A stretch of DNA of 64,000 nucleotides. Origin: Lytechinus pictus. Its lineage: Eukaryota. The stretch covers positions 18,602,001-18,666,000 of the forward strand of contig NC_087251.1 of assembly GCF_037042905.1 (NCBI RefSeq), given 5' to 3'. Shown here in pieces: positions 4,478 to 63,340 of this stretch; positions within the stretch are counted from its first letter, which is position 1, and every line of letters starts with the position of its first letter. The notes under the pieces were generated by a model. The model saw nothing but the letters and a program-made list of their open reading frames with translations, was not told the DNA's origin and did no database searches. The translations under genes and the position numbers were made by a program.

Positions 4478-5200
4478 GAACTAGAAATTTGACGTGTCCA
4501 AAGGACGCAGATGCCCCCGCTTAACGCGATCAAAAATTCATCAGGGTTCCCACAGAAATTTGAAAACAGAATTCCATGACTTTTCCATGACTTTTCCATG
4601 ACTAAATTGCTGCTTTCCATGACTTGCTTTTTGGCACGGTTTCCAAATCAGACACATTATGATGGCCTCCATAACCTCCCCTCACAGCCATCCATTCCAC
4701 CCACTACCATACTCGTGACATGTACATCTACATGTATTATCATTGGTATGTGGTCTGTTTCTGACCAGGGTACAGTACCATTTTCGTTTCACCAACATCA
4801 AGATTTAAGCCATTCAGCCATGAGGTAAATGAAATTCCATGACTTTTCCATGACTTTCCAGGACCACAAATTTTTCCAGGATTTTCCATGACCGTGGGAA
4901 CCCTGTTCATTCAATATGATTCAACTTAATATTGTGCAGAAATCAATATGCATATATATATAAAATGAACAAATTTAGACCTTTGAACCAACTCGCATAT
5001 CTAATGAGCTGTGACCTTTGACTTGCTGACACCGAATTCGAACTAAGCCTGTATCTTGGTGTTATCTACCTACACACCAAAATTTTTAAAAATCCATTAA
5101 ATATTTTTCGAGTAATTGCGCAGAAACCAAGTGGGGGGACGGACGGACAGGGGCAAGGCTTAATGCCCTCTCCGGACTTCGTCTGCTGGGGCATAACAAA
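4478..5200. mobile_element. HINE/DINE-like non-autonomous element carrying a nested MITE
   Basis: aactag start; subterminal inverted atgcccc / ggggcat; tgacctttgac core; (GGAC)n near the end; short hairpin; class assignment is inference. Confidence 0.55.
4542..4905. mobile_element. MITE with CAGGG ends and 5-bp TSD (hAT5-like)
   Basis: TTCAT|CAGGGTTCCCAC...GTGGGAACCCTG|TTCAT; internal ttccatgac repeats. Confidence 0.88.
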
Positions 5201-5216
5201 AGTGAAAGTCATTTAC

Positions 5217-5468
5217 CTGCAAAAAGAAAGTCTGTGGCGTCATGAAGGGGCCATGGGTGCTAGTAGGAAGATAGAAGACATATAACAGGTAATCCCAGAT
5301 AGTCCAAGAATCCTCTTTATCCTTCTTACTCTCATCCTTACTGCTTTCATCTTGATCTCTCTGCTGCTTCACGTAGCCAACCCCAAAGGCAATAAAACGT
5401 AGACAGCAAAAGGCCATGGCTATGATGAACTTGACACGGTATTCTCGGATTCCAGGAAGTAATGAGAT
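5217..5468 (-). CDS. HHAT: HHAT-like coding exon 5, ISLLPGIREYR...LRFIAFG...YLLYVFYLPTSTHGPFMTPQTFFLQ
   Basis: cattaccag acceptor, gtaaat donor, phase 0-0; MBOAT motif YxFYxP....GP. Confidence 0.92.
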
Positions 5469-5903
5469 CTGGTAATGGAATGTCATGAGAACATGACAAG
5501 AATATTGTATTTATTAAAGCCTTTTCCTCCATTTTCTGCAGTTTACTTATCTGAGAGCAACCAAATACACCATAAGTGTAAAAAGTGGAAGGGAGATTGA
5601 TGTCAGGGCTCTTTCTGATGACAAATTTCCTAAGGGGTTTCTAGCAAACTTTCTGTCAAATTTTGCCCTAAATAAGACACTGTTCTTCTCTTTGTTATCT
5701 AATTTGAACTCTTACTTCATGCATTAAGTATGTCCAAACCTACAGTACATTCTGCTAAAAGTTCCTGGCAAAGTATACATTCCTTTCGAATTCATCAATA
5801 TACAACAAAATTAACAAAAATGTGGAATGACAGAACTTGCTCCTACCTTTACATACAAGAAATCAATTAATTTCATAATTTTTATTGATATTTGAATCAA
5901 TAC

Positions 5904-14656: not shown

Positions 14657-15768
14657 CCTCCAGGCTACTTGCGCCTTCATCCCGTACCAGATGATGATGA
14701 TGATGAAAAATGTACTTTAACTTTTTAAGAATTTGTTTCTGTGTTGCTATTTTATAAAACAAATAATGCACTTGCTCTGTCGTGCGTAAAAGTAAATGCA
14801 GAGAAAGCTCGGTTTCTTCAAATGGTGCACACTGGGCACTCACCGCCAGCGGCTCGTGCGCAGTGCGGCACCTATCTAAAGAAACCTCGCGTGCTCTGCA
14901 TTTCCACTAACGCACTCGGCTGCATGCATAATTTGCATACAATTCCATTCTTTTTTACTGCTGTTTGTGCCTTTTTGGGCGCTTTTGATGTTCTTCTCTA
15001 CTTATAGTCTTTTTATATGATATGGCAAAAAATAACCAAAAAATAACTCATGTCTCATGAGCATAATGATTTTAATCAACAAAAATTAAAGATGCATTTG
15101 ACATGCATTATTACAGGAAGTTCTGCCAGACGACTGATATGGCCGTACGCTGTTATTGACGTTTCCGTCTGCTAGAAAAAAAGTGCAGCCACTGTCATCC
15201 CCAACTTAACCTCTTTTTAGACTTAACCGTTTAACGCAGTGTTAATAAATGTTCGTGTTAGTAACTTACTGTTATCTTTGAACAAAATTTTTGCTAACAG
15301 TAGGCCTAACACCATTTTCAGAATACCAAATTTCGTGTTATCTTCAACCCTAGGCCTATAAGTTTAACCATGGCATGCTAACACTACAGTGACACTAGAC
15401 AAAAAGCTTCAGTTTCTGACTCTGTATTTTGGTTGTTCCACTAAACTGAGGAGTCTGAGGCTGAGCTGCGTTGACTCACGTCACTCACCAAGTTACCAGT
15501 AAAATGTCAGAAATTGTTAAATAAATCCCCAGAAACTTTATTTACAGTAACACGATTTTCAGAATTCCAATCGTGTTCCTGTTAGCTAACACGGTCTTTA
15601 GAATACTGCCCCTACTATACTAACCTCGCAATAGTGTGAGTGGGCCTGGAATGGAATCACACTCAAGCTCACACAGTCACAGCACAGCACAGTGAGTCTG
15701 TGACCGAGTGTGAGTGACTATAGTATACCGGTACATACACTAAAAACTGCTGAAAAATGATCCTTTAC

Positions 15769-15965
15769 TTGGATTCTCCTGCCTGGTGCCTGGCACATGA
15801 ATAACGTAAGGAATTGGAGGATGCGAGTAAAGTCCTATGTACAGCCAGGCAACTGAATCAATGTTGTTTTTGTTGAAGTTGTTCGTTGTAGGTCGTTTTC
15901 AAACCCAGTCCAAATAAATAGACCTATTTCTGTGGTTTCAGCATAGCAGTCGACATTTTGAAAAG
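15769..15965 (-). other. Candidate non-coding first exon of the HHAT-like gene
   Basis: gtaaag donor at 15768; caaaatgtcg YY1-like motif near 15960; the ATG exon has its own acceptor, so an upstream exon is needed. Confidence 0.45.
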
Positions 15966-16430
15966 CTCCTCCGTCAATTTTGGGGAAACTTCCAAAGAAT
16001 TTATTAAATTTGCATATTTAATGGTATGAAGTTATAATTATAAATATTTTATCTTAATCAAAATGTATTTGATATTTATTTTATATTATTTTAGGTACTA
16101 ATTTAAAAAAAATGTGCTCTAAAAATAATTTAAATAAAGATTCATACGAACGAGCCGGTTATTTCCCGCATCTCTGCCGCTGAGGCGAGGTACAAGGTCC
16201 GAGGAGCTATCCGGAGGAGATCGAGAGCCAGGCGGGCATTCATCCACGGCCACCAATACATATACGTACGACTGCGCTGCCAATACGCGGTACCGGTATA
16301 GCGGAAGTAGCGGCCGCAAGTCAACGGGGAAAGTTAAACCGAGCCGAGTGAGGTTGAGCCTTGGGGAAAAAGACCGTCTTATAAACTAAGTTAACGTTGA
16401 TATACAAGTCAGGTCATTGGCTAGTTTGTG
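15960..16430. promoter_or_regulatory. Candidate bidirectional promoter plus CpG-rich plus-strand first exon
   Basis: AT-rich spacer 16000-16140 then a CpG-rich island 16145-16360 with ETS-like GCGGAAGT (16301) and a gtaagg donor at 16431. Confidence 0.5.
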
Positions 16431-17005
16431 GTAAGGATTGAAATTATTCAATTGAAACACTGTAGGCCTATACCAATGTAAATCTAACAGACTGAGACAT
16501 GTATTTTCCTATCCTAGATTAAATAATGTTAACTTGACTTGAGTCTGCCTTGTTCATTGTGTGTGTGTGTGTGTCATTTGCGTCATCTGTGCGTGCGATT
16601 TCTTTTTCACGCGAGTGAATACGAGAAATCACGTTTCTGTGCGGAAAAGACCGTCTTCTACCCGGTAAACTATGCCCCTTTTTTAAGTCTGCCTTGTTCA
16701 TTGTGTGTGTAACTGTCATTTGTGTCTAGTTGTCTGACTATATACACTGTGCATGCGATTATAATTTCTTATTCATCATAATTCATGCGATTGCAAGTCA
16801 AGTGAATACGAGAAATCACGTTCTGTGAAATTTTTATCTGAATTGCACATTAACGAAATTAAAGGACCAGCACATCTGTCCTAAGGCTAAGCAATAGTAT
16901 ACTCTTATTCACCTAAGCCTAGGGTTCATTACATGTCACGTCGCCGCGCACAGAAAAATCGAGCCATAGGCATAGTCCATAGAAGTCGTGTGTTGTGGAC
17001 ACCAG

Positions 17006-17162
17006 GGGAGCGTTTCATGAAAGGACTTGTCGGACGTTTTATCCGACAAGTCCCATTGTATCCAACAGTTACCATAGTAACAGTACCTCTCAGCCAATCA
17101 ACATCAGAGAAAGATGTCAGATCTGACAACTTGTCGGATGAAAATGTTGGTGAAACACTCCC
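17006..17162. mobile_element. 157-bp MITE, CAG TSD (Harbinger-like)
   Basis: CAG|GGGAGCGTTTCA...TGAAACACTCCC|CAG. Confidence 0.8.
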
Positions 17163-19150
17163 CAGAAGTGGGATCCCAGCACGCGCTACCCACTAGTTAG
17201 AAATCCACTGCCAATCGCGGTTCATGGTGCGAGGTTAGTTAGTAATACTAACCTCGCAATACGTGTGAGTGACTCTTAGGTCATTATTCATAAATCCTTT
17301 CCTGCTTTGTGGTGGAACCTGTCATGCCTGGCCAGAATAAAGAATCGACGAGTACGAGCTTACCATTAAAAGGGGAAGTTCACCCTGACAAACAGTTACT
17401 TTATTGGTAAAATAGCAGAATAAAGAAAGATATTGCCAAAACTTTAATCTAACACTAACAGTAACAAAGTCAAACTTGAATGAAATTAAAGTTATTTGAA
17501 TTTTATTTCAATTAGAGTCTATTTGATTTGTGACGTCATATGCGAGTAGCTTTCTTAGATCCTAATATCGTGTGTTAAAAAATCAATGAAATGTCATTTT
17601 CTAAGAAAATTGTAAAAATGGCTCTCATTGTACCTTCACTCAGGGGCGGATCCAGGATTTTCCAAAGGGGGGGGGGGGCACATTTTCCCTAGGAAAAATT
17701 TGACAAGTGTCAAAAAGCAAAATTTATTTCTGAAAACGTAAATTTTAAGACTGTATTTATAACACACAGTCAATGAGAGACCACACACAGTTCACTCCCC
17801 CTTTAATGGATTTTCCTCAAACCACCAATATTTTTTCTGATATTTTTACATCAAACTTTTCTTCACGGTGGATATCATAATTACATGTAGACCCTGAAAA
17901 AAATCAAAATCAACAAACAAAACTAGTTTAGATCTAGGTTGAGCGACTCTAGATCATAGATTGTAATAAAAATAATAGGTTAGGATCAGCAATGCCAGTA
18001 TTTGGCCTTCATTTATTATTATTATTATAGACAGCTGAAATCAGTCTGTTTGGAGGAGTTTTAAACATTTTTCACTTTCCTACTTTCTCCTACAATGTAC
18101 GAAACAGAGACTGAAGCTTTTGTTCTTTGCCAATGATCAAGTTAGATGGTGCTATTGCGATTGTGCGTGAAATGTTTCTTGTGCATGTGCTCATCACATG
18201 TTTTTTGCAGATATTTGTAGGCCTACATGTACTTCACTCAGCTAGTTGTTGATAAGGGGTACTGACTGTCCAACCTTTCAGCGCGTGTGGAGCTCTTTGA
18301 CCTGACACTTCCACTAGACAACAAGCGATTTACGGCAAATATGTGTGTCCTATTAAGGCATGGCGTTATTCCTCCTGTCTATAGAAATTCTATGCCTATG
18401 CTTTGCTCTATATTTTTTTGTAGAATTTTTGTATTATCATGAAATTGGAAAGAAGTTCCCATTTCCACCATTTTTCATCACAAACATGCTCCAGTTGTAG
18501 CTCCGATTACACACTTCATTGTTGCTGCTGGTGCTGCTACTTCGAGAGCTTAGATCAGAGAGATTTATTTTTGTCACTTTCTTAATTCCCACATTGATAT
18601 GGAAAAATTTGAGAATTCTCTATATACATGCTGATTCCTTTTGAAAAGTACTCAAAATAAATACAGTCGACTAGCGAGATTTATTTCATCACTGTCTTTT
18701 CTCTATGCATTGGATTGGGAACCAGTGTTGAAAATTCTTCATAGAGTTGTACAAGTTAGCTCCCATTTCAACAAGTAAATAAATACACCTGACGAGTGTG
18801 ACATATTTTGTTACTAATTTATTTTAGTGAACGGTGAGGTTACTGAGCCTATCTGAAAAAAGTAGAGACTCTTATGGCTAGTGCACTGAAGTAAATACAT
18901 GAGGGCCACAAGCAATATCATTCTTGTCACAGCTGAAATCGCTGGCTAAAATAGAAAATCAATATTCTAACTGAAATTTCAAAATATGTTAGAATGATGT
19001 CTTTACTCAGAGATGTCAATTTTCCGTCATTTTATGGAATTCCGTATTTTTCTTTGATCCTAATTTTTGTCCGTCTTTTTTTCATTTTGTGTAAACATTT
19101 TCAGATATTTCCATTTTCCCCCTCTTTTTCCGTCTCTCATCTTTCATTTG

Positions 19151-19654
19151 TATATAAAAAAGCGCTCGCAAAACGCGAGGGCTTAACAGCATTGAATTGA
19201 AGTGGATAGCGCTTGCATTCTGTTTTGTAGCGCACGCGATCTGCGCGCAAGGATTTTGCAGCTGTTTTTTTAGCGGAGATTGCTGTGTATACGTACCCCA
19301 AAGATGCTGGGAAGCCTTGAGCCCGCATCCGCTTGGACCGCTTGTCAGTTGTGCGGCGTGGTTTCTTACTCGCTGTTTGTTTAATTTTCTGCATTTATTT
19401 TTTGATAAAAGGACTTGGATTTATGTGGATATATGTCATGCATCTGGAAGTTGTGAAATGCGAACTATATTTGATACAAAGACTTGAATTTGTGTTGATA
19501 CAAGCCTAACAGTAACAGGATATGGAAAGTAAAGACTGAACACTTGGTGGATTTGGTGAATTTTTAATTTTGAATTTTGAGTTCAACTGTTCAAGATGGA
19601 GATAGACAGGAGTGCCAATATATCCAAAATAGACTTTGGGATAAAAAACAATTG
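19151..19654 (+). promoter_or_regulatory. TATA-box promoter and candidate first exon of the plus-strand gene (short ORF MEIDRSANISKIDFGIKNN, 19596-19654, phase 2)
   Basis: TATATAAAAA at 19151, then a CpG-rich leader, aagATGG start and gtaaat donor at 19655. Confidence 0.5.
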
Positions 19655-21469
19655 GTAAATTTAATGTGTTGTCCACTCTAACATTCTATTCAGTGTTCAC
19701 ATGCATGTCATTTCTTTTATTACAGGGATATATGAATGGAAATGACCTTCAGATGATATTCCATAATTGCAGGTCAACTAGCAGAAAATATGTATTATCT
19801 TTTAATTTTGTGAAAAGGGAGAGGGATATATTTTTTTTATTTAGGCCTAAATCACATCTCTTAGTATTGAAATGTCTGTATCTTATACCATACAAGTGCT
19901 CATTGGGCACCCAACAACGTTAACGCATCAAGCGAACCGCAAATGATTTGCGGGTCGGCGTGCCAAGCTTTGACTTTCCTTTTTTTTTTTCTCTACCCAC
20001 TGGCATCCCTGTTTACTGCATAATTGTTCATTGCACAAATATTAGCTCTAAAAGAAATAGCCCCTTAATAATATATGATTATTCCTACCCTGCAGATGGC
20101 CAATATTGGAGTCTCCCATTTAGAAATGGTTAATACCACAGGAGCTCAGCAGGTAATAGCAAATGCAGGGGAAACGGGTGCTAATTCCAACTTGTTTTTT
20201 TTTTTGTTAAATGAAATCAGCATCCAGTATGTCCAATGCAACATTGATTCAAGATGATGAAGGATGAGAGAGATACATGTATGCTTCCGTGTGAAGTTAT
20301 GAAAAATTAATAACATACTAAACTACATGTATTGTGATGAACATGGTACATGTACTTTTCTACTGTAAAAATATAAATCATGTTGTGGATATCTGATCTA
20401 CAGTATAAGTAAGATCTAACATGATATTTAAGTACCCAGAAGCTATGTTTAATTGCCAATTTGCTCACTCCTTAGATGTAGAAAGGGAGAGAGAAATGGA
20501 GGGAGAGATGTAACCTTTTTTAATTTGGAGTATTTCTTGAACTGGCATTTAAGAAAATCCTAGAATCTTAAATACCACTTAGTCCAGGAAGTAGGAAATT
20601 CCTGGTTGTGACCAGTAAATTCCTGTGCAATAACTTTTTGCAAGTCCCTTTTCCTGTCTTCGTGCACTGTGATTGCTTTACACAGATATTGCTTTCGTTA
20701 CCTTAAATACCTCATTGACATGTTGGCATTCCAGCAAGATCCATATTTTCCTTCATGTATCTCCAAGAATAATCTGATCCGCAGGGCAACAGAGTTCATG
20801 TTCTTTGTACATGGGGCTATTTACATTTGAAATATAGTTATGTAGCCATAAAAGTGATAAAATATCTCAAGCTAGTGTAATGTGAGTTGGAATGAGATTT
20901 TCATCTTAATCATCAACATCTTATTTGTTTTTCCAAAATGACATCAACTCTTCAATGGCTAATCAGGGTCATTCATCAGAGTGTGCGCCAAGTCTTTTCT
21001 TTAGATATGGCGGAAGTGTGTCACCGGGGGCATATTCAGGATTTTGTAGATGAGGGGGGGAACAGAATTTCTGACACTTCGTTGAAAGATGTAATCGTGG
21101 TATTTAGTTATCTGTATGTCATTGAAAAACTGACCTGTGCTACAGTGTAGATTTAAAAATTACAAGGCTCTTAATAATAAAAAGAGTGATTTTCTTCATT
21201 GGCTGGTGCCTGGTCTTGCATATTGTTGTGTATTGCCCAAATGCAATCATATGCACATTATAAATGAAGATAAAGCGCAATTAAACCTGTGTTCAATACG
21301 TACTCCTACTTACGTACGTACGTACCGTACGAGCAAAGCTCTTTTTGTCATTTTCTTAACTAGTTCAAGCAAGCACAATGTAAAATCTTTCTACAATTGT
21401 ACAAATCCCCATAATTTTTTGTTATATTATGTATACACTTGAATTATTTTTGATACTACTATTTCTACT

Positions 21470-21565
21470 AGACGACTGCTACTACTACTACTTCTACTAC
21501 TACTACTACTAGTACTTCTACTACTTGTACTATTACTAGACTACTACTACTACTACTACTATTAT
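21470..21565. repeat. (TAC)n microsatellite, imperfect
   Basis: Direct observation. Confidence 0.9.
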
Positions 21566-22001
21566 GACTGCTCATTATATCCTTCTTGTAGAGTGCTCAG
21601 GGCACATAAAGAAATGGGAAGTGAATAGTTAGGCTTTAAGAACAATTTTTTTATGGTTTGGTGATAATATGAAATATAATCAAGTGTCATTCTTCAAAAT
21701 GTGTTGCGATTTTTTTTCATCTGTTAATTTGTTGAAAAAAAATTCAAAATGTTAATTTGATGATATTTAGTGCCCTCTCTAAGTTTTTTTATTGATAAAA
21801 GTCTTTCAAATACTGAACGCTATCTAAAAGATAAATAAATAAGGTTGCAAATTTTTGGAAAGCTACAAATAGATTATCCTTGAAATTTCCAGCCCGTGCT
21901 TTGAAAAGTGGTTTGTTACATGCACCTTCATGTAAGAGCAAAAATATAGTTATTTTTATTTTGGTTGTGATCCTGACCAAATATAATTTCATGTAAAGTC
22001 A

Positions 22002-23394
22002 TGGCAATTCCATAGGTTGGTGGACATGAGCTCAATGTGTCTTTGTACTGTATAGCCCATCTGAACTGTACATTTCAATTGTGTTTGCCTTACTTATACT
22101 TATTGCTGGTTCTTTAATTGATGTTGAGGGCTTGAGGCAAGAAATGGAATGCATTTGTTTTACATTTTTGATTTACACAGCCCAAGCCAGATCTCGTACA
22201 GTTTAGTGAATACTTTACCAATATACTGATCAATAAGTAAAAGAGAGGAGGAAACTTATTCTTAATGTTACCTTTAAAGGAGAATGAAACTCTTGGAGCA
22301 AGTTAGCTTTTGTGAAAGCAGAAAAATCAAAGAATAAGATCAACAAAACTTTGAGTAAAATAGGACTAGCAATAAAAGAGTTATGAGCATTTGAATGTCG
22401 AGATCACTAATGCTATGGAGATCCTCCCATCGGCAATGCGACCAAGATCTGTGATGTCACACACGTACAACTCTCCCATTTGGACACTGAAAATATACCC
22501 CAAAACATATCTTTTTGCTCATTCTAATCATATGACAAACGATTCATCAATGATATAATGTTGTGAAACCTCTGTACTTGTCATCTCATAAAGAGAACAC
22601 CTCACCTTGTGATAGACTCTATAAAAGTGAGAATATACGTGAAATAAGTACTAAAGTAATGAGGGAGTTGTACGTGTGTGATATCACAGATCTTGGTCGC
22701 ATTGCCGATGGGAGGATCTACATGGCACTAGTGATCTCAATATTCAAATGCTCATAACTTTCTTATTATTCATTCAATCTTCCTCAAACTTTCAACAATA
22801 TGTTTCTTTGATTTTTCTCTTTGATATGGATTCAGCTGGTTTCAAGGGTTTCATTCTCCTTTAAACATAAACTGGTGTCTGAAATCCTACTCATATTATT
22901 ACAGAAACAGAAACATGAATCTTACACACATTATTGAATTTTTAGTGACATTTATGTTGTTGACCATACATGGACAAAATGTAAAGTGTCTAACCGTAAC
23001 GTGAGTAACTACTTTATCTGCACTCCTAGTAAAAACCATGTGTTCTTTATTTTTTGAATTATATACAAAGTTTGTCTCCCTAATATACTTCTTTGAAATG
23101 GATATAATCAACTTTCATAAAAGCCTTGTATGAGGACACTTTTCACTTATGTCGACTTTTCATTTTACATGTATGCATGTCCAAATCATGTTACATGAGT
23201 AACCGACACATTTCAAAGATTTGCCAGGAGCATAATAAAATTTTCCAAGTTTTGTTTTTATACAAAGGATAGTCAGACTGCGTACTTTGTTATGATAAAG
23301 AGATGTTTAGTTCCTATCAATAATAATGGAGTTACAGCTCCAAGTATGAGTCAAGGTGTCTCCAAATGTAATGTGTGTAACTATGGAATAGACC
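22002..23394 (+). mobile_element. Older, internally rearranged copy of the Sola-like element at 42670
   Basis: Left end ggcaattccataggttggtggacatgagct; 22915-23394 aligns with 43815-44291. Confidence 0.8.
22278..22860. mobile_element. Palindromic TTAA MITE, family A (Kolobok/T2-like)
   Basis: TTAA|AGGAGAATGAAAC...GTTTCATTCTCCT|TTAA. Confidence 0.9.
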
Positions 23395-23450
23395 TTAAAA
23401 GATTTATTGACTAAAATTCATTTTATTTCATCCACACAATTTTGATAATA

Positions 23451-26395: not shown

Positions 26396-26740
26396 CCGGG
26401 GGGGGGGGGGGCACTTGACTATATTTCTGTGCACACGCACGACCACAGGTTTTAAAAACCCACCCTAAATAAGTTTTATCCATTGGTCAAATCTATACCA
26501 TATTCAAGTAGTTTCACTTGCTTTTTGGACAATTTTGCCCCCTAAACAAGTATAACCCATGAAAATTATATGTTTTACCCCACAACCATACCCTTTTTTT
26601 TCCTGATTTTGTCCTTTTTGACACCCTCAATGCGTCATGCCACGTGATGCGCCATGATCAACAAAAAGTACCCTTTTTTACATAGATTTTTTTTTTGCGT
26701 ATGCACAGCAATGTACATGTAGTTGAGTGGCTCCCCTGGG
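26396..26740. mobile_element. Poly-G-ended non-autonomous element, 8-bp TSD (7/8 match)
   Basis: gaatattg|CCGGGG...GCAC ... GAGTGGCTCCCCTGGG|aaatattg. Confidence 0.7.
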
Positions 26741-41262: not shown

Positions 41263-41345
41263 CAATCATGTGCTGGCACAGGTTAAACCGTTAAAGATAT
41301 TTGTTCTAGATGTCACTGTATGAATGTCTAGTAGTAGTAGTAGTA

Positions 41346-45216: not shown

Positions 45217-45256
45217 TAGTAGTAGTAGTAGTCGTAGAAGTATTACTACAGTGTAT

Positions 45257-45307
<51 letters not shown>

Positions 45308-45390
45308 ATGTAGTCGTACATTTATTATAATAGTTGTAGTAGTAGTAGTAGTAGTACAATTACTATTATTATTATTATCATAATTACTAT
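45217..45390. repeat. (TAG)n / (TAT)n microsatellite
   Basis: Direct observation. Confidence 0.95.
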
Positions 45391-45719
45391 GTGATGTTGT
45401 AATCCCATTTGAAGAAGAAGTGGAGAAGGTGGGCCTCCAGTTTCAAAGATCTTGGGTCAATGTTCAGACCCTGATGGGACATGTGTATTTGCTTGCCTAC
45501 TCACAAGCACAGGCTACATTGCTTCACTCGGACCGCAGTCTACATTCATGAACACCATGTACTCATTCTTGGCACACAGTCTGCCTGCATCCTAACAACA
45601 ACAAAGGCCTCAGGGTTGAGGATATCGGTTTACGCTCTGCTTACATGAATTTCATGTTCATGTGTGCAGCCAGCAATCCAAGGATACATTCAGGTCTGGG
45701 TGGGTCTTCATTAGCCCTA

Positions 45720-46148
45720 GACCCCGTTCTCAATACGCTTTATAAAACTAGTTTACTGGAAACTGGTTCAGGAAACTAGTTAAGAAGATCGCTTTGCTAG
45801 CATTCCCATTTGATCACCCGAAAGTGGTTTTCAAAATCACTTCACATAAAGCAATCTTGTTCCTACGGGAATGCTCTTAGTAGATGACACATTTTGTGCG
45901 AAATTCGAAACCGCATTGTACTGTAGGCATTCTACACAAAGTGTGTAGAAATGTGCGAAGATCGCTTCCTGAAGAGCGGTTTTGTCCTCACTTATGCTAA
46001 AAACCAGTGTAACAAGGCAAAGCGATCTTGAAAACTACATTGCGAGGTGGTTTTATGAACTGGTTTGGAAGATCGCTTCGACCGTTCTCATTACATGTCA
46101 AACTAGTTCCCACTAAACTAGTTTTAGGAAGGTAGTGAGAACGGTGTC
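45720..46148. mobile_element. MITE, 3-bp CTA TSD (Harbinger-like)
   Basis: CTA|GACCCCGTTCTCA...TGAGAACGGTGTC|CTA; subterminal aaactagttt repeats. Confidence 0.85.
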
Positions 46149-48449
46149 CTAGTTTTTATTTCTTGAGATTCTAGCATCATCAGCCCTTGAGATTAATCAT
46201 GAGATGGTAAGAAATCTTATCCCTCTGGCTCTCAGCCTGATTAGATGATTCTTGCTAGAACACAGGTCTGACCGTACATGTAGGCTACATGTACATACTG
46301 TATTGCCTATTGGAGCTTGCTCACTTAGGGGCTCCATATCTCCATTTACAGTTCTTTTATTGTGAATGAATCAGGGCCTACCTGTACATGTACAGGAACA
46401 TGTATGTTAGTGCTGAATCTACCATGTCGTCCTGGAAAAAGTCTTAATAAATAAATTTAACAAGTAATTTATCCTGAGCCAAAGCTTGGGTGTCTTTACC
46501 TGAGCTATTAGCTAAATTATTTACCAAAGCACAGGCTACATACTAAAAATGCCTTTGATGTCTCACGATCAAGACAGGAGTTGTTCGATCTGGTCAAGAT
46601 GATACTCATGGAATAGCATGTAATCCCATTGAAAATGGTTGCAAAGTTGTTCTTATTGGGATAGATGTATGGTTTGCTTAATGAGAAATAGGACATGAGA
46701 TAATTTGGGAACTCTAAGATGTAGAAAGGCCGATGTAGAAGGACTGACTGTAACAGCAGAAGCTTGTTGTATCATGGACATGTCCCAGGATGATGTAAAG
46801 TTGTAAACACAAATGGATGTCAATTGTCAGATTGTACATTTGTACAGCACAACACAATACAGTGAAGTTCTACTGTTCTTGGATGTGGAAAACTGGAAAG
46901 TAATCTATCGGTTGCTCCATCAATAGTTTTTAAATGATTTTGCCTTCAGATTACTAATATGCCACAGACTTTTAATACATGTAGGGAATCTCTTTGATTT
47001 TATTATTGCTAATCTTAAAAGTATGATCAAATTTGCTTTTGTTGTCCCCTAATGCACCAAGATTATAAGTCGACCCTTTATGTATGTAATGTAGCCAATG
47101 CCCAAGTCAAAGCAAGTTTTTTAGGCCAGATTATGGAAAACATGATAACAAAGTCAAAGTCTCCTATAAAGTCGAATGGTCTTCTGTGGTCCCAAAATAT
47201 TTGACTCAGGCGAAGTTACCTCTTGTTCTCATCAGCTATTGAATTTCTTTCGTAGAAGAACATATTTCATTTATAACAAGATGATTGTCTGATATACTTT
47301 TAATTAAAGCACACTCAAATAAGCCTTCATGTATATTTTACTTTTCCCTCTTTTTATGTGCCCATATGAAAGCACATCTTGGTTGATAGTACATAACATA
47401 CAGCGTATAATGATGATTATCAAAACTTGAAAGTTTATTAAAAGCACATGTCAAATATTTTTGTATCTATTTCTAGGACATATAGTCCCAATAAATACAA
47501 GAGTGGAACGTCTGGAAAGTTGTACATGTTGTAGACGGCATCCTGAAAGGAAGTGCTTTTGAAGGAAACTTGTCCTGCAAGCCATGAGCTGGCGCTCGAT
47601 CTGCTCAAGTTATTATCCGGCAGGCTTTCAAATTAGAGACGACTGCAAGGAATGGAGAATGTGATGAGTTAGACAGTTCTTTCATTTCATCATTATGCCT
47701 GTATTGCATTATAGTTTAATATATGCCGCAGAGCTTATGTACGTAGGTGTGTAAAGCTAATGGCAAATCAATACTTTAAGTGCCTTAAAGGTTCTGTACA
47801 GATATATATTGATCAAGCAAGTGAGTTGAAAATATAATTGTCCAACAGAAATATAAGCCTGCTTTATGGCTGTTGTTCCATTTAAGATTCTTGCTGAGAT
47901 AACTTCTTTACAAACTATAATCAGTATTCTGACTTTGTAAAGTCTGGTCATTATTTACAACGTCCTTTTTTATTCAGCAATCCATATTTTCACTTTGTAA
48001 AAAATTGTCTAAATAGTAATCTTTAGAATGTGTATACCAAACTTCCAAAATTTTGGGTGGAAATGTGCTTCATTACCAGTTTCCCCGGATCCAGCTCAAA
48101 TAGGGAGTTCATCTGGTGCCACTTTAACATCAAATTCTAGTAGTTGTCAATTTTAGGGATTAAGTGACTAAAATTATAATACTTCTGAACTTGTTACTTA
48201 CTATATTAAAAAATTTGATGGCAACATGATTAGTTAATTAGTGTACTAGGATTGAGGTCCACAAAAACGGAGGATTTCATTACCTGCAGAGTGAGATCTG
48301 CGACTTATAAATTGTGGCAAACACAAAGCGACTCAGTTGTGATTTGTTTGGGTACTTCAACCCTGGATTTAACACTATACTCTATCCTAAATCTAACCCT
48401 ATATCTTAGACGAAATAAAGCCTGGAGCAAATGTTGTGTCATCCTGAAA

Positions 48450-48808
48450 ATAATAATAATAATGATAATAATCTGCTTTTATATAGCGCTTAATACATCG
48501 GAACGATGTCTCTAAGCGCTTACAGATATATTATTACCCCGGTCATCGGATCCTGGCATGCCCACATACAATGTATGCTACTTCTCCACTCCCTGGGGAG
48601 CATTTCAACAAGAGTTCAAGACTCAATTGCTAGGCATACTACATAGGCTTTCGCATCCTACCGGGTACCCACTTAACAAACACCCGGGTGGAGAGTGGCA
48701 AATTGTGGATTCACGCCTTGCCAAAGGACGCTAGGCCATGGTGGGATTCGAACACACAACCCTCTGATTACAAGGCGAGAGTCGGAACTGCCACACCATG
48801 ACACTTCC
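48450..48808 (-). mobile_element. tRNA-derived SINE
   Basis: Minus-strand B box gttcgaatcc, tgggtacccgg core, (tta)n tail. Confidence 0.85.
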
Positions 48809-49707
48809 ATGTAATGGGCGTCACAGCTCAGCACACAATGCAGATTCCACACACTTTCTACCAGCGTACTTTTTTATGTTGTTTAAGGAACTCAAATCGT
48901 AATGATAAACATGACTTCTTGAGAGACCCCCATTTTGGATTCGTGTTCGTTAAATTCTAGACATTGATGTCCCTCAAACATAGGGTTTAAGTCCTGCTTG
49001 TGCAACCAAAATGAGATCTTCCCAGGAAAACAAATGAAGCCAATACTGCGAATGCAAAGAGTTGAAGAGTTATTTTAGTTCTTTAAGTCTAATGCATTGA
49101 GAAAAACAATTCATTACAACCTGTATTTTGTATCATGTTTTTGCAATTGTCAGAGCTGGCAAATTCAATTTCATAGTTATTAATATTTTGTTATTGAGCC
49201 CATTACCTGATTGAAAACAGCTTTATGTTCATATCATTGTTCTGAACTTGAAACTTTTGCCTGGTGGATCTCGGGTATGCCTGTAGCCCTCTGCCTCATT
49301 TCCGCTTCCCACACTATTTAGCTTGTCTTCCCCTTTTCTGCGAAGAATAAGAAGAAGTGAGGGAATCTGCTAGGAAATTGTCAGCAACAAGGGGGCAAGT
49401 TTGTAAGTAATCACTTCCTCTATGCCCCCCTGCTCTACGAATAAGCATAGGCCCCTCTGTTTTCCTTTGGTAATAATCAGAGCATGCTTGGCACTGTATT
49501 CCACCTGTGAAAATTTCTATCGGACTATTTTTACTGAACGACGTGAAAGGCTTTCATCACGTGCAGGAAAGTGGGTAGAACTGTATGTTTGCTATTTGTA
49601 GTGAACCCGATTTACAGCTGCCAAGTTTATATTTAAAATCACAAAGTTGTGGTTTCAGTTTATAGCATCTGTTTTGGGGGTATTTTGGGGAGCCTTTATC
49701 CTGCAAA

Positions 49708-50276
49708 ATGTCTGGTTGGACTGCAGAAATAACCATTTCACTGCAATTTGGCGGAATGCGAGAGGGAGTGCTACGGTCTGGACCAGCTCTGGAGATGATT
49801 GAAGGAGGAGGAGGAGATGGTGCTAGTAGCATCGGGGAGAGTAGTTCAGGGGTGAGCTGTGGCAGCTCAGACTTTCTAAATAACTCTGCTGCAGGATCAC
49901 ATGAATGTGAAGGACATCACCAATTTCCCTCAAGGTTTGAGGCTGGTGCCCAGACATCAACACCTCCATCATCATCACCGTCATCCAGGATTGGCTTCCC
50001 TTGTGAGCATCATCAAGGAAACCAAAGGCATATGAACCCTCGGGTTGCACAAGTGCCGCTTCCGGCTAACAGGGCTGCATATGACCAGGAATGGTACAAT
50101 AAAAGGCGCGGAATAGCGTTGCTTTCTCAACAAGATTCACCACAAACACAAGAGCAGGAATGGTATAATAAAAGACATGGAATAGCTTTACCTAAGCAAG
50201 ATTTACCACAGACCCAAGACAGCTGGCAACAGATTGCTAAGGAACTGAGAAACAGGGAAGTGAAGGAACCAGTCAG
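49708..50276 (+). CDS. Coding exon of the unidentified plus-strand gene (low-complexity N-terminal region, 189 codons + 2 nt)
   Basis: Longest ORF in the window, GC-richer, protein-like composition; ends at CAG|gtgaat in phase 2; start could be 49708 or a downstream ATG. Confidence 0.75.
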
Positions 50277-52697
50277 GTGAATGTCTTATTTTTTTTTTAT
50301 TTGAGCATCATAATTGTTTTGGATTGGAATAAACATATGAAATCAGCCACAGAAATCAAAAGGGATTAGGCCAATAGATTAATACCCTGTTTGTCTTAAT
50401 CAGTTTGCTGTCTGCATGTGAGTCATGAAATACACCTGTGCATGAAATACTGGTATTCCATAAAAATAAACATGTCTGTTTTTTCTAAAATTAAGTTAAA
50501 ATTTCATTGGCAGTAGACCTTGCACTTTGCAGAGAATGTAAATCCTGGAAGTAAAACTGTTCAGGCTCTCACTTCTGAATCAGTGGGTGTTGAGTAAAAA
50601 CTTGAATTCCACTCCTTGACATTAATTTTCTCTAGTGGCAGTTGATCCATATTATGCTGTATTAGACCCTGGTAGCATTAAAATAAGTAGGCCTGCTTGA
50701 ATTACTGCTGTGGCAATATCCAGATGCCTCTGAAAGCGCATTAAAAGATCTCATAGTGGATGACATTGTGTTATGTTTTATCTTGTACCATTTTTTTAAG
50801 GTACCTCTCTCTGCTAACAAACCCTTATTCTTTATCTGCTTACATGTATATGATGGAACATCTGAGGTGTATCTTTTCAATTAAGTAAAATTCTGTGAAT
50901 TTTAAAAATCATATACATGCATGTATAAAAATTTTCGTCCACAGTGTATGTTTTCTAAATTCTATCTGAAATTTAAAAACAAAATATAATTCCATCATGC
51001 CCTTGATATGTATTTTGTAATATTGTAAATTGGCAAGTACATTGGTGTAAAAGAGTGTTAATGAGAATTACAATTCTGTTTGTTTTATGATTGCAAATCA
51101 TTGAGGTCCGTCCATACGCCAGGTCGTGTTACCACTACATAGGGTAAACTTCCATCTGAAATTGACCAAGACTTGTGGTATGCTTTTGGTTCCTGTTTTT
51201 CACATCAGTTATCGACTGCCCTCTAACTAGATCTGCCTGTTGACTATGGCTTCTGTGGTTATGAATGGAGAACGTTGTTTTGCTTTTCTGTTTTTCCTCT
51301 CTCTTGCTTCCCTGATTGGGCGAAGTATATTTTGGCATGTGTCCGGTTGGTATACACCTCCCCGCCCCCAAAAGATGAAATATGAGGTTCAGCTGGATCA
51401 ATGTATCAATGCAAAGGAAATGATAAGTTTTGTATGGGCCGATATTTTGGCTGTGGTATGCCTTTTGTGTTCCTGAGGGACTTGTCTGTTGTATTTTTGC
51501 ATCAAGAGTTCCTCAATAACTACTGCTTCAAAATTTTGTTTATTTGTGAAGATGCTGTGTGTTTAGATTGAATATCAATCCTCTGGAGCTTGTGTGTTTG
51601 CACCAATTTAGGTTGGTAATAACATAGTTTGATCTGTATATGCAGTCTTTCTGGAAATATCAACTGGATTTGCTGCCAAGACGCACAGATAAAGCCTGTA
51701 ACATTTGAGGTATTTATGAGTGACTTGTACGCTAACCACAGCCAATACATACATAATTAGTTGTCTGTTTAATTCAAATCACGTTTTCGATTGGTATACA
51801 TCGCTTTGCTACTATCAGGAAGGAGTCTCCCTGTGCCCATGGATCTGAGATAAAGAGTGTATTTATTTTTTGTGAATGCAGAATCAGTGATTTGAATGCT
51901 CATTTGAAACACATTTACATGCAGTACTGTAAATACTTCTTTTTTCTTTAAAATCAAAGTTAATTCTTACCATATAATCATTTATTCAGATGTATTTTTA
52001 AGTGTGCATAAGCTGGACTTTGTAAAACAATAAAATCTTTGCTGAAAAGCCTTCCCTACCCCCAAAACACAAAATAAAAACAACAACAACACACAAAACA
52101 GTCACTGGATATCGTCAACAGAGGTTTCAATTCAAGTCCATATAGAAAATTTGTTTTGGGATTTACATAACTGATTATTAAAGACATACATGATTATCAA
52201 AGATCATGATAACATTTGAAAACACATGAATGAAAGACATTTAAAGTGGAGATGGTAATTATACAATAAGATAAGCACACATGGGGTGCATTTATTATTA
52301 TCATTGCCTTGGAAAATACCCTTCTGTACTGTATGAAGAAATAGGCCTACATGTACCACACTTTTAATAATAATTTACTTATTTCTCAGCATTTATACAT
52401 TTTCTAGCAGAATCATGTGGTATATTAATCTCAATACTTGGATGGTCACTCATTTTTATGGATTCTGTTCTAGCTCATATCATGTCCTTTTCTCCCAGAA
52501 TTTTGCTATAATTTAGGATTTGGCTCCTCACTGACATGAATGTGTAAAAGAATTGAAAAATGAAAGGTTCCATGATTTTATTTTTGAAGAAAAAGTGTGC
52601 TTTTAGTGTAACATCATCACCCCTTTCATCTTTTTTTTTTTTTTGCATATGATTATACACAAAAAAGCTGAATTTATATACATGTACATGTATACCA

Positions 52698-53021
52698 TTA
52701 TAATAATAATAATAATAATAATAGTAATATGGTCCATTTATATAGCGCAGCTACTACTATTGCATACACTCAACTGTGCTTTATACTTGGTATCATATTA
52801 TTACCCCGGCTGTAGCTGAGCTGCCAAATAGGCGCTACATGTAAAAGCATTCAAGGAATGAATCCTACTGGGTACCCATTCACCTCAACTGGGTCGAGTG
52901 CAGCACAATGTGGGTAAATTTCTTGCTGAAGGAAAACATGCCATGGCTGGGATTCGAACCCACCTCCCTCTGATTGAAAGACGAGAGTCGTTACCAGTAA
53001 CCACTAGTCCACGACGCCTCC
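52698..53021 (-). mobile_element. tRNA-derived SINE
   Basis: Minus-strand ggttcgaatcccagccatggc, aatgggtacc core, (tta)n tail. Confidence 0.88.
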
Positions 53022-58838: not shown

Positions 58839-60960
58839 GTAAGTCATATTATACACAAAGTTAACCTTCTTCTCGTGAACTGTTCTTTATCCACAGGTAA
58901 CACAGAAATGAACTGAAGGAATTTTGGCAGGTACTGTATGTCAATGAAATATTCAAGCATATAAAGAGCTATAGTTGATCTTCACTTGGTGCCTAATATT
59001 TCTCTGGTTACGTGATGATTAGGTGACAACTACAGTACCATGTGCCTATGAACAAGTTTCAAGATCTTTGAAAACAGTTGGGTAAGGAATCAACCAGGAG
59101 TGCAAAAGCCTCAAGGGTTAAAGATCTGCCTGAGTTTGATAAATTTCAAGATTCTAGCCAGATCAGCCCTCGTCTGGATTGATTTTGAAATTTGATTTAA
59201 AAAACCGTGTCTCCATCAGTTCAGGTAAATAAATTTACTTGAATATGGAATATTAATTGTGGATGCAGAGCATGTGTACTAAGATCTCAGCAGTATGGTT
59301 TTATGAATAGACTTTCAAAAGCCAAAATCCTAATGCATCTTCACTTGCAAACTAGGTGGATGATTCCCAAAATTGTGGGTTAGTTGACTCAGGATTGTAA
59401 ACTTGAGTGATGAAACCCATCAATTAGTCCACTAATTGTATCATGATAATTGATAATTTAAAGGTTGTTCTGATCAGGATAATTGGCTGGATCAGAAAAC
59501 TTATCAGCATAATTTGAAAACTTAGCATGAGGAACTTTCACTGGGTAATGCTCTTAATACTGTTTGCCATTTGCCCTCTACAGTCTACACTACAGTCAGT
59601 GAACACATGAGTGAGAATGTGAGCAGTGTACGGAAGTACGGCCTCCATACGCTATTAAAACATGGTAACCACTGCGCAGCTGCAAAGTATGTTAAATCAG
59701 GCTGTAATTGCGCCACATACGATTTATTTAACCGTTTGAGTGACCTGCAATGACATATTCCTTTAATGATACTGCTGTCGTTCCCATCCCATGTTTTCAG
59801 AAAAGTGTGGCAACCTGGGCAGAACTGTAAAGCCAGTTGCATGACTGACACCCATTCAAACTTAAAATCTGCTTCAATGAATAGCTTCTTCGCACATAAA
59901 GAAGACAAGGAAGTGAAGTCTATTTTTTTGTTGAAAAGTTGTAAGTAAAGAAATATTTTTACAGGATACAGAGATTAGGGGAATTCTGAAACCACCCCCT
60001 TTAAATTTCATAGACATTAGTGTAGTTTATAATGTGTTGACCTAAATTGCACCTTTGATGCATATATTCTGATCATATAGGATTTATAGCAATTCTCATT
60101 CTGTTGCAAATTTTTGACAAGTGATTCTTTGTTTTGATCTGTTGAATATTTGTTTAGCACTAATAAACAGACCTTGGAAATCTGGACCATCCAATGAACA
60201 TGAGTTACTGGGAGAATATTTACTCTTTTTTAATGCAAGATCAAAGTCCACTCTATATGTCTGTTAATTACTTTGCTAAGTTGGTTGCAGTTCCTCATTT
60301 CCTTTTCAATTCTAGTTCTTGATGCGCTTGAGTAAAACAGGTAGTCTCCTTCCCAGTGGTGGAATCTAATTCTACAATCGGTGTTGTGTCTTGGAAGCTT
60401 AAAGTTTCAGTTGGTTAGAGACATGTGTTCAAGTATAGATTTGGCCGTGGAGCTCGATTTTCAACTTTTGGATTATTGATCTTGGAAATTTTGTTCATGA
60501 ATTACCAGAACTGCATTCTGTTTTTGAAGAGACGTATGCTGAAAGTTGTGTGTATTGGCAGAAGCCCTCAGAAGCGGCAAGGAGTTGGATTGAAGTGTTT
60601 TGATGACAGTGAGCAGAGGCTGTGAAAAGTTTGGAATTGGTAAAAAGGAGACAGAATCCGCAACGGGGTAAATATGTACAGCCTGCAAATCTGTTTATTT
60701 CAATAGGTAGAAACAAATGGAGAGTCCTATTTATACCTTTTGCAAAATGTTGAAGAGATGGAGAATAAATGCTCTGATTTGCATTGTCTGTTATTTTGAC
60801 TTGTCAGTTAATGTGCATTTAGAGATGGAGCAAAGAAGATAGTACAAATGCTGTTGTATATTTTTCTCTCATGCTAGGGACCTAAATTGTAGAGCACTAG
60901 TGCTGTGCGATATTATGGAAATTATGCGGTATTGAAAAAATATTGAATATTCCATAATAG

Positions 60961-61490
60961 TTTTGTCTTGCTTGCATAGCAGAGCTCGACTGTACAGTCG
61001 CTGCTTTTCCAACAGTGACAGCGGCAGCGTTGTAAACATTGAAATCTTAATAAGATTAAGTTGTAATGTCATCATAACTTTATAGAAAGTATATGGATCT
61101 AGTTCATGAGACTTTGACATCCTGTCTGAGTTTCAGGTCACATGACAAATGTCAAAAGTCATTTATGGTTAATGAACTTAGACCATGTTGGGGGAATCAA
61201 CATCAAAATCTTAACTAAGGTTAAGTCTTTGAAATGTCATCAAAACTTTGAAAGTATCTAGTGAGCATGAAACTTAGATGTAAGAGTAATCAAGTATCAC
61301 TAAACATCCTGGATGAGTTTCAGGTCACATGATTAAGGTCAAAGGTCATTAAGGGTCGATGAACTTAGACCATGTTGGGGATATTTTTTAAATTGCTATC
61401 CTAACTTTGAAAGTTTATGGATCTTGTTCATGAAAATTGGACATAAGGGTTATCAAGTATCACCGATTGTACACAAGTTTTTGGTCTTGA
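60961..61490 (+). mobile_element. Truncated copy of the 34474 HINE-like tandem element
   Basis: ttttgtcttgcttgcatagcagagc start and 2-3 agtttcaggtcacatga units. Confidence 0.8.
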
Positions 61491-63340
61491 CCATTTGATG
61501 TTTTTATTGGTTCAATTGGTTCATATGTAACATGAAGCTGGTCCTCGGATACATTTTAATGAACTACATGTATCAATAATTTTGTAAATCTCACATTAAG
61601 TAATGGAGCTAGAGAAGGCAATCTAAATTGTATTTCCAACACCTAACTTTAAATCTAGTGCAGGATATTTAAAAATGACAAAATCATTGCTCATCAGACC
61701 GGGGGTTGAAGAGCGCATAAACTCAGCAGAGACTGGGAAAATCTATGCGTCTTATTTGGTACTATTCTGTCATCTTCGACCTTGGATTGAGTGAAGATGG
61801 TATCCAGATGTGGGATGCATTTAAGCCAATTATATCGTTGCTGCCCCCATTGCCCCAATCCAGCAGGGTATTCCAGCTATGTTGTAATTAAATGCAATGA
61901 CTGGTTAATGTCCCTATCCCTCACATTCCTTCCCTCCTCTCCCGCCCATCAGCATTTAGGAAGTGTTTAAATGCAATCCGTGAGGAACATTCATGATCTG
62001 ATTATATTAAAATATGAGGAACTCACTATGTATAGGGTTTGGCTTGTACATTTCTTTATGGTAGAAATAGAAATCACATCATTGACGATGGATGTTGCTA
62101 TGTTGAAGTCATTGATAGTGTCTGTATAGGCCTGCATTACCACTTCATGAAATGAATTCTACCAGCACTTATACAGCAGGGTAGGGATCATGTATGTCTA
62201 TAAAATAAAAAAAAATAAAAAAAATGTCATTTGATTTGATATATTCTTTTTATTTTTCAGGATACAATACATGGTTTGGTTATTTCAGGTGTGATAATAA
62301 ATTCAGAATAAAAAATTAATCACAATAGGCTTCATTTATGCATTTGTTTTCTCAAAGGTTAGCGAAACTCAGCCTCATCAAACAGATTTTCTTTCACACA
62401 AATCATGCTATGAATGTCATAATTTGTATTTGAAAAAAATATCTGAAATTTATCAGGTTACAAAGTTTCACACAGTTGAACATTTTGAGGCCAACATTCC
62501 CCCCCCCCCCCCATTTTTGGACCACTGTGTCATGTCCTTTGGCAGTAGTGCATGAAGTAATTAGTATTAAAGACCGGAGCTGGAAAGTATACCCTGATTA
62601 TGCCACTGTGTATTTGCAGATTGTAATGAGGCTTTGGTGGTCTAAACCTTGAACTCCTTTTGGTATTGCTCCTATGCCAGCCCACATGTTTGCAGGAGAT
62701 TATTGATGTTGTTTAAAAAGGAGCTATTTGCTAATTTTAGACTTTTTAAAGATTTGTTTTGATGTTTCTCATTACTGCTGACATTTAGTAGTTGTACATG
62801 TGTCAATGCAGTACATTTTCTTGTCTGTTCATCATTTTAACACTTCGATAACCAGCACAGCATCTTATAAAAATGAGATAATATACAGAATCGTCTTCTG
62901 TGTTCATTTTTATAAACTTTTCTTGCACCTGTAGGCTCTAGATGATATCTGTACATAAAGGGGGGGGCAGGGAGATCTATGTAATCCTTCATCTTTCGTT
63001 AATTTGCAAATTGATCTTGACATGGAAAAACATGTTGAAAAAGGGAATTTTTACATAGAAACATCTTAATACTCCTGTCAATACTGGAATTGTGTTGTAC
63101 AGGGAATCAAACCATTAGAACTGTAGAATATTGATTTGCATTTTTGATCTTGAACCAGAAAGATGAATACATTTAATACATGTTGACCTACATGACAATA
63201 GTACATACATGTACTAGACATCGTTCAGAGAACGTTGCCTTTATGACATAGTTACCAGAAACAGTATAACTATATTTTTGAAGGAACACTAAAAAATAAA
63301 CAAGGTGAAGTATTCATGGTTCATGGATTGAAATATCATA

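What the first reader, a model, noticed from the sequence alone, without database searches (positions are those of the whole stretch)
4729..63213. Large excess of TACATGTA that looks like mass Tc1/mariner excision footprints
Seen: about 40 copies by eye (e.g. 4729, 6456, 8826, 11879, 17882, 20274, 24153, 33650, 46275, 54912, 61565), some iterated as TACATGTACATGTA (29883, 39283, 52679). Roughly 2-3 are expected at ~66% AT (my rough estimate). Internal control: one Sola-like copy reads cattt-TA-tgcatgtcc (44069) and the other cattt-TACATGTA-tgcatgtcc (23166), a clean CATGTA gain at a TA. The same 8-mer sits at the A box of a SINE head (36389) and in a SINE body (52836). Known: Tc1-family elements (TA TSD, CA...TG ends) can leave TA-CA-TG-TA on excision, and such an element is at 2848. 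Inference: heritable insertion and excision at about one site per 1.5 kb, a strong mutational process that spreads a palindromic motif. I cannot tell whether this is already described for this taxon.
Basis: partly seen in the sequence, partly recalled or inferred. Interest (0 to 1): 0.75.

Follow-up and report, generated by a model that had tools for sequence, protein, structure and literature searches.

The report
Transposon excision scars in urchin introns
An eight-letter palindrome is about ten times too common in this stretch of sea-urchin DNA and behaves like a six-letter scar left where a cut-and-paste jumping gene came and went, which would give a countable record of past excisions, although no site was caught with the jumping gene still in place.

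Summary
Real. TACATGTA occurs 44 times (41 loci) in 64 kb. About 2-5 are expected once the motif is kept out of its own background. The host is Lytechinus pictus. Only TA-CATG-TA is enriched among 16 XY-CATG-XY words, and CpG decay is excluded. At 23166 the six letters are a gain: 75-100% of repeat-family depth lacks them in 4 of 4 runs. At 36389, removing them restores a 72-nt tRNA-like SINE head. Site 52836 is inconclusive, and 24153 differs from other contigs by substitutions. Related TA-bounded words are also in excess, and the units stack. Best reading (0.72): accumulated Tc1/mariner scars in which both 2-nt overhangs were kept, plausibly by Pol-mu-type end joining (inferred). No allele holding a full element was found. 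My rough rate is one scar per 150-200 substitutions, so 'strong mutational process' overstates it. This scan reported the same pattern before in this genome and in others. I did not find it in print for echinoderms in eight searches.

The parts
4729..63213 (.). Field of 44 TACATGTA words in 41 loci: 5 in 1-16000, 29 in 16001-48000, 7 in 48001-64000
   Evidence: uneven, chi-square P 0.027, sites not independent
23166..23173 (.). Scar in a repeat copy (22916-23397): a 6-letter gain at TA relative to most of the family
   Evidence: table 4: 6 letters left out in 75%, 89%, 97% and 100% of depth in X1, X2, X6 and X10
44069..44070 (.). Empty TA at the matching place in the second copy (43819-44294)
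36389..36396 (+). Scar at T8-A9 of a tRNA-like SINE head (about 36382-36459)
   Evidence: with relaxed thresholds ARAGORN calls a 72-nt cloverleaf that includes the 5' stem once 6 letters are removed, and a shifted 68-nt one otherwise; default ARAGORN finds 0 tRNA genes
52836..52843 (-). Word in a SINE body; gain not established
   Evidence: anchor spacing is 71 here, 72 in the copy at 30916 and 65 in L001; the tails are too diverged
24153..24160 (.). Counter-example: other contigs differ here by two substitutions, not by a listed gap
   Evidence: table 3 (24154 A>G, 24158 G>A)
2848..3918 (.). Non-autonomous Tc1/mariner-like element, TA|CAG...CTG|TA, inverted ends of about 24 nt, with a TTAA-flanked palindromic element nested at about 3161-3745
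   Evidence: no Pfam hit in its three scanned frames
33646..33668 (.). Stacked run of TA-separated CA, CATG, CTG, CATG units; one of 19 such runs (others at 30459, 39283, 46286)
   Evidence: 19 runs (12 mixed) against 0-1 for 13 control unit sets and 6 for the one control that shares CA/TG
15301..52349 (.). Eight TAGGCCTA words (15301, 15351, 16463, 18218, 19842, 26908, 39369, 52342); two share a TA with a TACATGTA
   Evidence: 8 against about 0.5; P 2e-7; no source element identified
24591..24620 (.). TA/TG/CA-built 4- and 8-letter gains in one arm of the palindromic element at 23445-25160
   Evidence: table 4 (24590 left out 4; 24609 left out 8, in a minority of family depth); arm alignment; slippage not excluded
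49708..50277 (+). Coding exon of Lytechinus pictus LOC135154727 (WH1/EVH1-domain protein); next exon 58756-58836; no TACATGTA in either exon

Best explanation
The words are inherited excision scars of TA-targeting Tc1/mariner elements with CA...TG ends. (1) An element inserts at TA and duplicates it (established). (2) Transposase cuts it out, leaving non-complementary 2-nt 3' overhangs, CA on each donor end (established for Tc1; assumed here). (3) Germline end joining keeps both overhangs and fills across them, so TA becomes TA-CA-TG-TA. The 6-letter product is shown; the enzyme is inferred. A Pol-mu-like X-family polymerase fits: sea urchins have three X-family polymerases, while nematodes and flies have none and the worm's usual scar is +4. 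(4) Scar alleles are near neutral in introns, drift up and decay slowly, giving about one per 1.5 kb (inferred). (5) A scar gives each of its TAs an A-Y half-site of the Tc1 target consensus, which favours re-use and stacking (inferred). I put transposon origin at about 0.72 and the PolX step at about 0.45 given that origin.
For: Excess of 44 against 2-5. TA is the only enriched frame: the other 15 XY-CATG-XY words occur 0-6 times. Gains are shown at 23166 and 36389. At 21 of 41 loci there is no CATG within 30 nt to copy, and only 1 of 41 has CATG adjacent. The Sleeping-Beauty-type words TACAGTA/TACTGTA occur 27 times against about 13.5 (P 8e-4). 14 of 82 flanks abut another scar-like unit against 2 expected (the unit list was partly chosen after seeing the data). 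A-Y at -3,-2 occurs in 25 of 82 flanks against 13, or 16 of 68 against 9.8 without scar-adjacent flanks; Tc1's consensus is AYATATRT (PMC9635669). Only 1 of 41 loci lies in self-aligning repeats against 7.8 expected, as expected if scars build up with age. Literature: taCATGta is a recorded, rare Tc1 footprint (PMC3520976); Tc1 leaves 2-nt non-complementary 3' overhangs (PMC4490562); Pol mu fills templated across such ends and works less well beyond 2 nt (PMC2396419 abstract); PolX counts by taxon come from PMC12828229.
Against: No allele with a full element at a scar site was seen. One search listed only 12 of 521 indel rows and 15 of 2104 joints, mostly from repeats. 25% of family depth in X1 does not show the gap at 23166, so a sub-family may carry it. 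Site 24153 differs by substitutions, and 52836 is inconclusive. The depletion in repeats vanishes (5 of 41 against 8.5, P 0.12) when an element centre, two SINEs and the Tc1-like element are counted as repeats. The flank match to Tc1 is partial: A at -1 is not enriched, T is depleted, and there is no excess flank symmetry. CATG lies within 30 nt at 20 of 41 loci against 28% of background TAs, which also suits local templating. Known germline Tc1 repair in the worm is heterogeneous (PMC4490562), and in rice 8 of 94 excisions were clean (PMC4423477), so such uniformity is not the norm. No transposase frame was found in 150 translated frames and proteins.
Confidence: 0.72

Rival explanations
1. 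Transposon-independent insertion: slippage or templated break repair (Pol theta type) copies a nearby CATG or expands TA/CA/TG-rich runs into the palindrome.
For: CATG is near at 20 of 41 loci against 28% of background. (TACATG)n runs occur in 3 phage contigs with no dispersed excess. Several stacked runs are pure TATG or TACA repeats. Templated inserts are typical of Pol-theta repair (PMC4490562).
Against: 21 of 41 loci have no CATG within 30 nt, and 40 of 41 have none adjacent. The insert is constant whatever the flank and is confined to TA. The SINE head at 36389 has no local template.
Confidence: 0.14
2. Selection for a transcription-factor site (Irx- or MYB-like) built up by substitutions.
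For: The same 8-mer is an Irx preference and the top Phytophthora promoter motif (PMC3520976), and it is bound by PsMyb37 (PMC11134190 abstract). Site 24153 differs from other contigs by substitutions. Six sites are kept in a diverged relative.
Against: The word arises as a 6-letter insertion in a repeat copy and breaks a SINE head. It is dispersed through introns. A site model does not explain the co-enriched TACAGTA/TACTGTA and TAGGCCTA words, nor the sharp drop to one-mismatch neighbours.
Confidence: 0.06
3. A by-product of composition: CpG decay of TACGCGTA, or the motif carried inside an old repeat consensus.
For: CpG is at 0.50 of expectation and CA/TG at 1.26. A self-trained order-6 model expects 34 of the 44.
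Against: The equally likely decay products are absent: TACACATA 1, TATGTGTA 0, TATGCATA 3 against 44. Flanks are unrelated between sites, and only 1 of 41 loci lies in a self-aligning repeat. About 3-5 of the 44 may be chance words.
Confidence: 0.04

Closest known systems
Tc1 excision footprints in Caenorhabditis elegans (PMC12632400, PMC13148408, PMC3520976 citing Eide and Anderson 1988; passages read)
   Same: TA duplication enclosing the element's terminal CA and/or TG; taCATGta is on record as a Tc1 footprint.
   Different: In the worm the +4 forms TACATA/TATGTA make up 78% of somatic scars, the +6 form is called rare, and germline repair is heterogeneous. Here +6 dominates (excess about 40), the +4 words show no significant excess (85 against about 75, P 0.13), and the scars are inherited and dense.
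Sleeping Beauty canonical footprint TACAGTA/TACTGTA (PMC6943129; passages read)
   Same: End-joining product that keeps terminal transposon letters between two TAs; these words are about twice expectation here.
   Different: That scar is +5 from 3-nt overhangs; the main word here is +6 and palindromic.
Natural Stowaway footprints in Triticeae introns (PMC1925063) and rice genome comparisons (PMC4423477); passages read
   Same: Inherited Tc1/mariner-class footprints in natural alleles, including re-insertion beside an old footprint.
   Different: Those footprints vary in form and were read at single loci or in 94 events, with the element seen in other alleles. Here one uniform word is visible as a k-mer excess, and the filled allele was not seen.
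TACATGTA motif of Phytophthora promoters (PMC3520976 passages; PMC11134190 abstract)
   Same: The same 8-mer, very abundant in non-coding DNA.
   Different: It is read there as a transcription-factor site; the footprint idea was dismissed on abundance and conservation. No insertion test appeared in the passages I read.

Membership tests
Tc1/mariner excision footprint (broad) | Duplicated TA on both sides of the inner letters | tested here: met
   Only TA is enriched among 16 XY-CATG-XY words; the empty site is a single TA
Tc1/mariner excision footprint (broad) | Inner letters equal the terminal letters of a TA-flanked element of the host | tested here: met
   The element at 2848-3918 begins CA and ends TG between TAs; that this family made the scars is not shown
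Tc1/mariner excision footprint (broad) | The word is a gain relative to an empty TA | tested here: met
   Met at 2 of 4 comparable sites (23166, 36389); 52836 inconclusive; 24153 differs by substitutions
Tc1/mariner excision footprint (broad) | An orthologous allele still holds the element | tested here: inconclusive
   None seen, whose indel, joint and loose-end tables were cut to repeat-dominated rows; no genome held
Tc1/mariner excision footprint (broad) | Flanks follow the family's target preference (Tc1: AYA-TA-TRT) | tested here: inconclusive
   A-Y at -3,-2 enriched (P 0.001; 0.04 without scar-adjacent flanks); A at -1 not enriched; no excess symmetry
Tc1/mariner excision footprint (broad) | A transposase able to mobilise CA...TG elements is encoded in the genome | not testable with these tools
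   No genome held; none in 150 frames and proteins from the window; earlier scan notes report a young Tc1 family, unchecked
Canonical C. elegans Tc1 somatic scar (+4) | TACATA/TATGTA is the main product | tested here: not met
   85 against about 75 expected, P 0.13; the +6 excess is about 40
Canonical Sleeping Beauty scar (+5) | TACAGTA/TACTGTA is the main product | tested here: not met
   27 against 13.5: an excess, but smaller than the +6 excess
CpG-decay product | All four double-deamination products of TACGCGTA are similarly enriched | tested here: not met
   44 versus 1, 0 and 3
Transcription-factor binding site (Irx/MYB-like) | Protein occupancy or purifying selection | not testable with these tools
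   No chromatin data or multi-species alignment available

The most novel reading that the evidence does not exclude
In lineages that keep a Pol-mu-like polymerase, germline end joining turns Tc1/mariner excisions into one uniform palindrome, TA-XY-X'Y'-TA. The word count then becomes a direct, family-specific ledger of past excisions: CATG for CA-ended elements and GGCC for an unidentified GG-ended one. Each scar seeds further insertion, and the process supplies Irx/MYB-type sites de novo. The abundant Phytophthora promoter motif may have the same origin.
Probability: 0.3. Interest if true: 0.75.

Novelty: new variant of a known kind. Interest (0 to 1): 0.52.

Why it matters
Excision rates of DNA transposons in wild germ lines are hard to measure because scars are varied or invisible. 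A uniform 6-letter scar could be counted from one assembly, polarised in population data and dated by its decay. That would make insertion-excision turnover and the choice of germline repair pathway directly testable in an animal that already has Tc1/mariner transgenesis (PMC11361634, title and passages). It is also a warning for motif discovery in sea urchins: TACATGTA and TAGGCCTA may be enriched for mutational rather than regulatory reasons. The insertion is in frame, so it could add two codons to proteins.

Tried and rejected
Whole genome: none held, so no genome-wide count. Read laying (window 22900-34400, 4 of the 18 runs listed): a likeness of 80 let repeat copies swamp the tables, so orthologous indels were mostly not listed. 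X10 matches the window without a difference over five pieces and may be the source, so it is not independent for unique sites. Collection scans for more repeat copies found 0 in viral contigs, 0 in prokaryote genomes and 1 in metagenomes (L001, 2162 bases, 0 TACATGTA, tail too diverged). Self-alignment of the window gave 9 six-letter gaps (redundant pairs included), of which 1 is TACATG. Rfam found nothing relevant. Pfam found no transposase. TACCGGTA (3 against 0.3) would fit the TA|CCC...GGG|TA elements in the window, but it is not significant after allowing for 15 words, so I do not claim it. Doubling as proof of repeated visits was rejected. CpG decay was rejected. The chaetognath polymorphism paper (PMC2997562, passages) had nothing on this motif; in the urchin Tet-On preprint the words occur only inside printed sequences. 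Look-ups of earlier notes by sequence, by relatives and for a polymerase-mu reading returned nothing. No supplements were read; footprint sequences in the supplements of PMC4490562 and PMC6943129 could bear on how common +6 is.
Full report
Observation. The window has 44 exact TACATGTA, in 41 loci and 33 clusters; apart from A/T runs it is the commonest 8-mer on both strands. Composition expects 2.25. A Markov model trained on the raw window absorbs the motif (10.4, 21.6 and 34 expected at orders 4, 5 and 6). With the motif collapsed to TA the expectation is 1.9-4.8 at orders 1-6, P about 3e-27. The coordinates, the three doubled sites and the 23166/44069 pair are as described.

Setting. A frame at 49711-50277 is 100% identical to Lytechinus pictus LOC135154727. 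That protein has a WH1/EVH1 domain, with exons at 49708-50277 and 58756-58836. The rest of the window is non-coding DNA rich in MITE- and SINE-like repeats. Of the 41 loci, 29 lie in 16001-48000.

Is it an insertion? At 23166 the second in-window copy lacks six letters. Contigs of four public runs lack them in 75%, 89%, 97% and 100% of family depth, so the long form is the derived one. The remaining 25% in X1 is unexplained and could be a sub-family that carries it. At 36389, removing six letters restores a 72-nt cloverleaf with its 5' stem under relaxed ARAGORN settings. At 52836 the comparison is inconclusive (spacings 71, 72 and 65). At 24153 other contigs differ by two substitutions; about 3-5 chance words are expected among the 44. 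So 2 of 4 comparable sites are gains.

Specificity. Among 16 XY-CATG-XY words only TA is enriched (44; others 0-6). The sibling products of CpG decay number 1, 0 and 3. At 21 of 41 loci no CATG lies within 30 nt, and at 40 of 41 none is adjacent, so simple duplication cannot be general. CATG is, however, near more often than background (20 of 41 against 28%). TACAGTA/TACTGTA (27 against 13.5) and TAGGCCTA (8 against 0.6) are also in excess; TACATA/TATGTA are not significantly so (85 against 75). Nineteen runs of two or more TA-separated CA, TG, CAG, CTG or CATG units occur, 12 of them mixed. Thirteen control unit sets give 0-1 runs, and the one control that shares CA/TG gives 6. Pure runs may be slippage, as phage contigs L002-L004 show.

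Flanks and age. Reconstructed empty sites favour A-Y at -3,-2 (25 of 82 against 13; 16 of 68 against 9.8 after dropping 14 scar-adjacent flanks). They do not favour A at -1, and they show no excess symmetry, a partial match to Tc1's AYATATRT (PMC9635669, passages). Only 1 of 41 loci is in self-aligning repeats (7.8 expected, P 0.002), but 5 of 41 (8.5 expected, P 0.12) when an element centre, two SINEs and the Tc1-like element are added. From the lengths and gap counts table 8, 6 of the 16 sites in the laid stretch cannot be empty in organism A, whose pieces differ by 5-9%. These are 25403 (record 3, no gaps), 33540, 33650 and 33661 (record 7, 3 letters deleted in all), and 29883 and 29889 (record 20, 4 deleted). 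The other 10 could not be judged. One-mismatch neighbours total 75 against 43-59 expected, which fits long accumulation with decay. At steady state an excess of 40 per 64 kb, with a lifetime of about one tenth of the per-site substitution time, implies roughly one scar per 150-200 substitutions (my arithmetic, rough). The scars hold 264 bases, 0.4% of the window.

Mechanism. Established: Tc1 inserts at TA and leaves non-complementary 2-nt 3' overhangs on excision (PMC4490562, passages). End joining leaves the first or last 2-4 transposon letters between two TAs (PMC6943129, passages). taCATGta is a recorded but rare Tc1 footprint (PMC3520976, passages), and the worm's usual somatic scar is +4 (PMC12632400 and PMC13148408, passages). 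Shown here: an element with TA|CAG...CTG|TA ends at 2848-3918, without a transposase frame. Inferred: keeping both overhangs needs templated synthesis across unpaired ends. Pol mu does this, and less well beyond two nucleotides (PMC2396419 and PMC3526283, abstracts). Sea urchins encode three X-family polymerases, and Caenorhabditis and Drosophila none (PMC12828229, passages). That would explain +6 here against +4 in worms, and it predicts TAGGCCTA from a GG-ended element, which I did not find. Trimming of 3-nt overhangs could give the same word. A scar also gives each of its TAs an A-Y half-site, a route to stacking; re-insertion beside a footprint is known for Stowaway (PMC1925063, passages).

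Against. No site was seen with the element in place, which is the missing decisive link, and one search showed only 12 of 521 indel rows. Uniform germline scars are not what worm or rice data show. Slippage or templated repair may account for part of the stacked runs. A transcription-factor reading exists for the same word in Phytophthora (passages and abstract), but it does not explain insertions into a repeat and a SINE head.

Novelty. It works like a Tc1/mariner footprint and meets three defining features. The filled-allele and target-site tests are inconclusive, and it is neither the canonical +4 nor the canonical +5 form. Eight searches of the open-access library (listings only, and only the top 25-40 of the four large result sets) showed no report of this excess in echinoderms. 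Subscription journals are not covered. This scan's earlier notes describe the same pattern in three other stretches of this genome and similar ones in other genomes, so it is not special to this window; those notes are unchecked and are not counted as support. Verdict: real, probably excision scars, a new variant of a known kind; interest 0.52.

Noticed in passing
window 31668-32462: Contigs of X1, X2 and X6 join across this stretch, which holds the very high-copy TTAA-flanked palindromic element 31788-32386. The insertion is absent in organism A, with about 100 flanking bases on each side also unmatched (table 8).
   Followed up: no
window 28716-29344 and 63343-63891; related 38555-39061: TA-flanked elements with CCC...GGG ends (TGC...GCA in the third), 17-bp sub-terminal repeats and internal 64-nt hairpins; class not determined.
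   Followed up: partly
window 23445-25160: A 1.7-kb element with about 650-bp inverted arms (88% alike) whose right arm has gained 4- and 8-letter TA/TG/CA runs.
   Followed up: partly
window 15301-19849: Five of the eight TAGGCCTA words cluster here, around a GC-rich stretch near 16100-16400 that looks like a promoter region; the promoter reading is by eye.
   Followed up: no
window (4 places): TACAGTGTA occurs 4 times against about 0.5 expected per strand; it could be a 3+2 scar, but it was picked after the fact.
   Followed up: no
window 49708-50277: The RefSeq model P0001 puts 216 residues from this exon and the next ahead of a partial EVH1 domain; the exon encodes a duplicated WYNKR-GIAL motif.
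   Followed up: no
L004 4955-5020; L002 and L003 5001-5020: Intergenic (TACATG)n runs in three unrelated viral contigs, with no dispersed copies nearby.
   Followed up: partly
L001 1755-1920: A SINE related to the window's family in a metagenome contig that has no TACATGTA in 2162 bases.
   Followed up: partly
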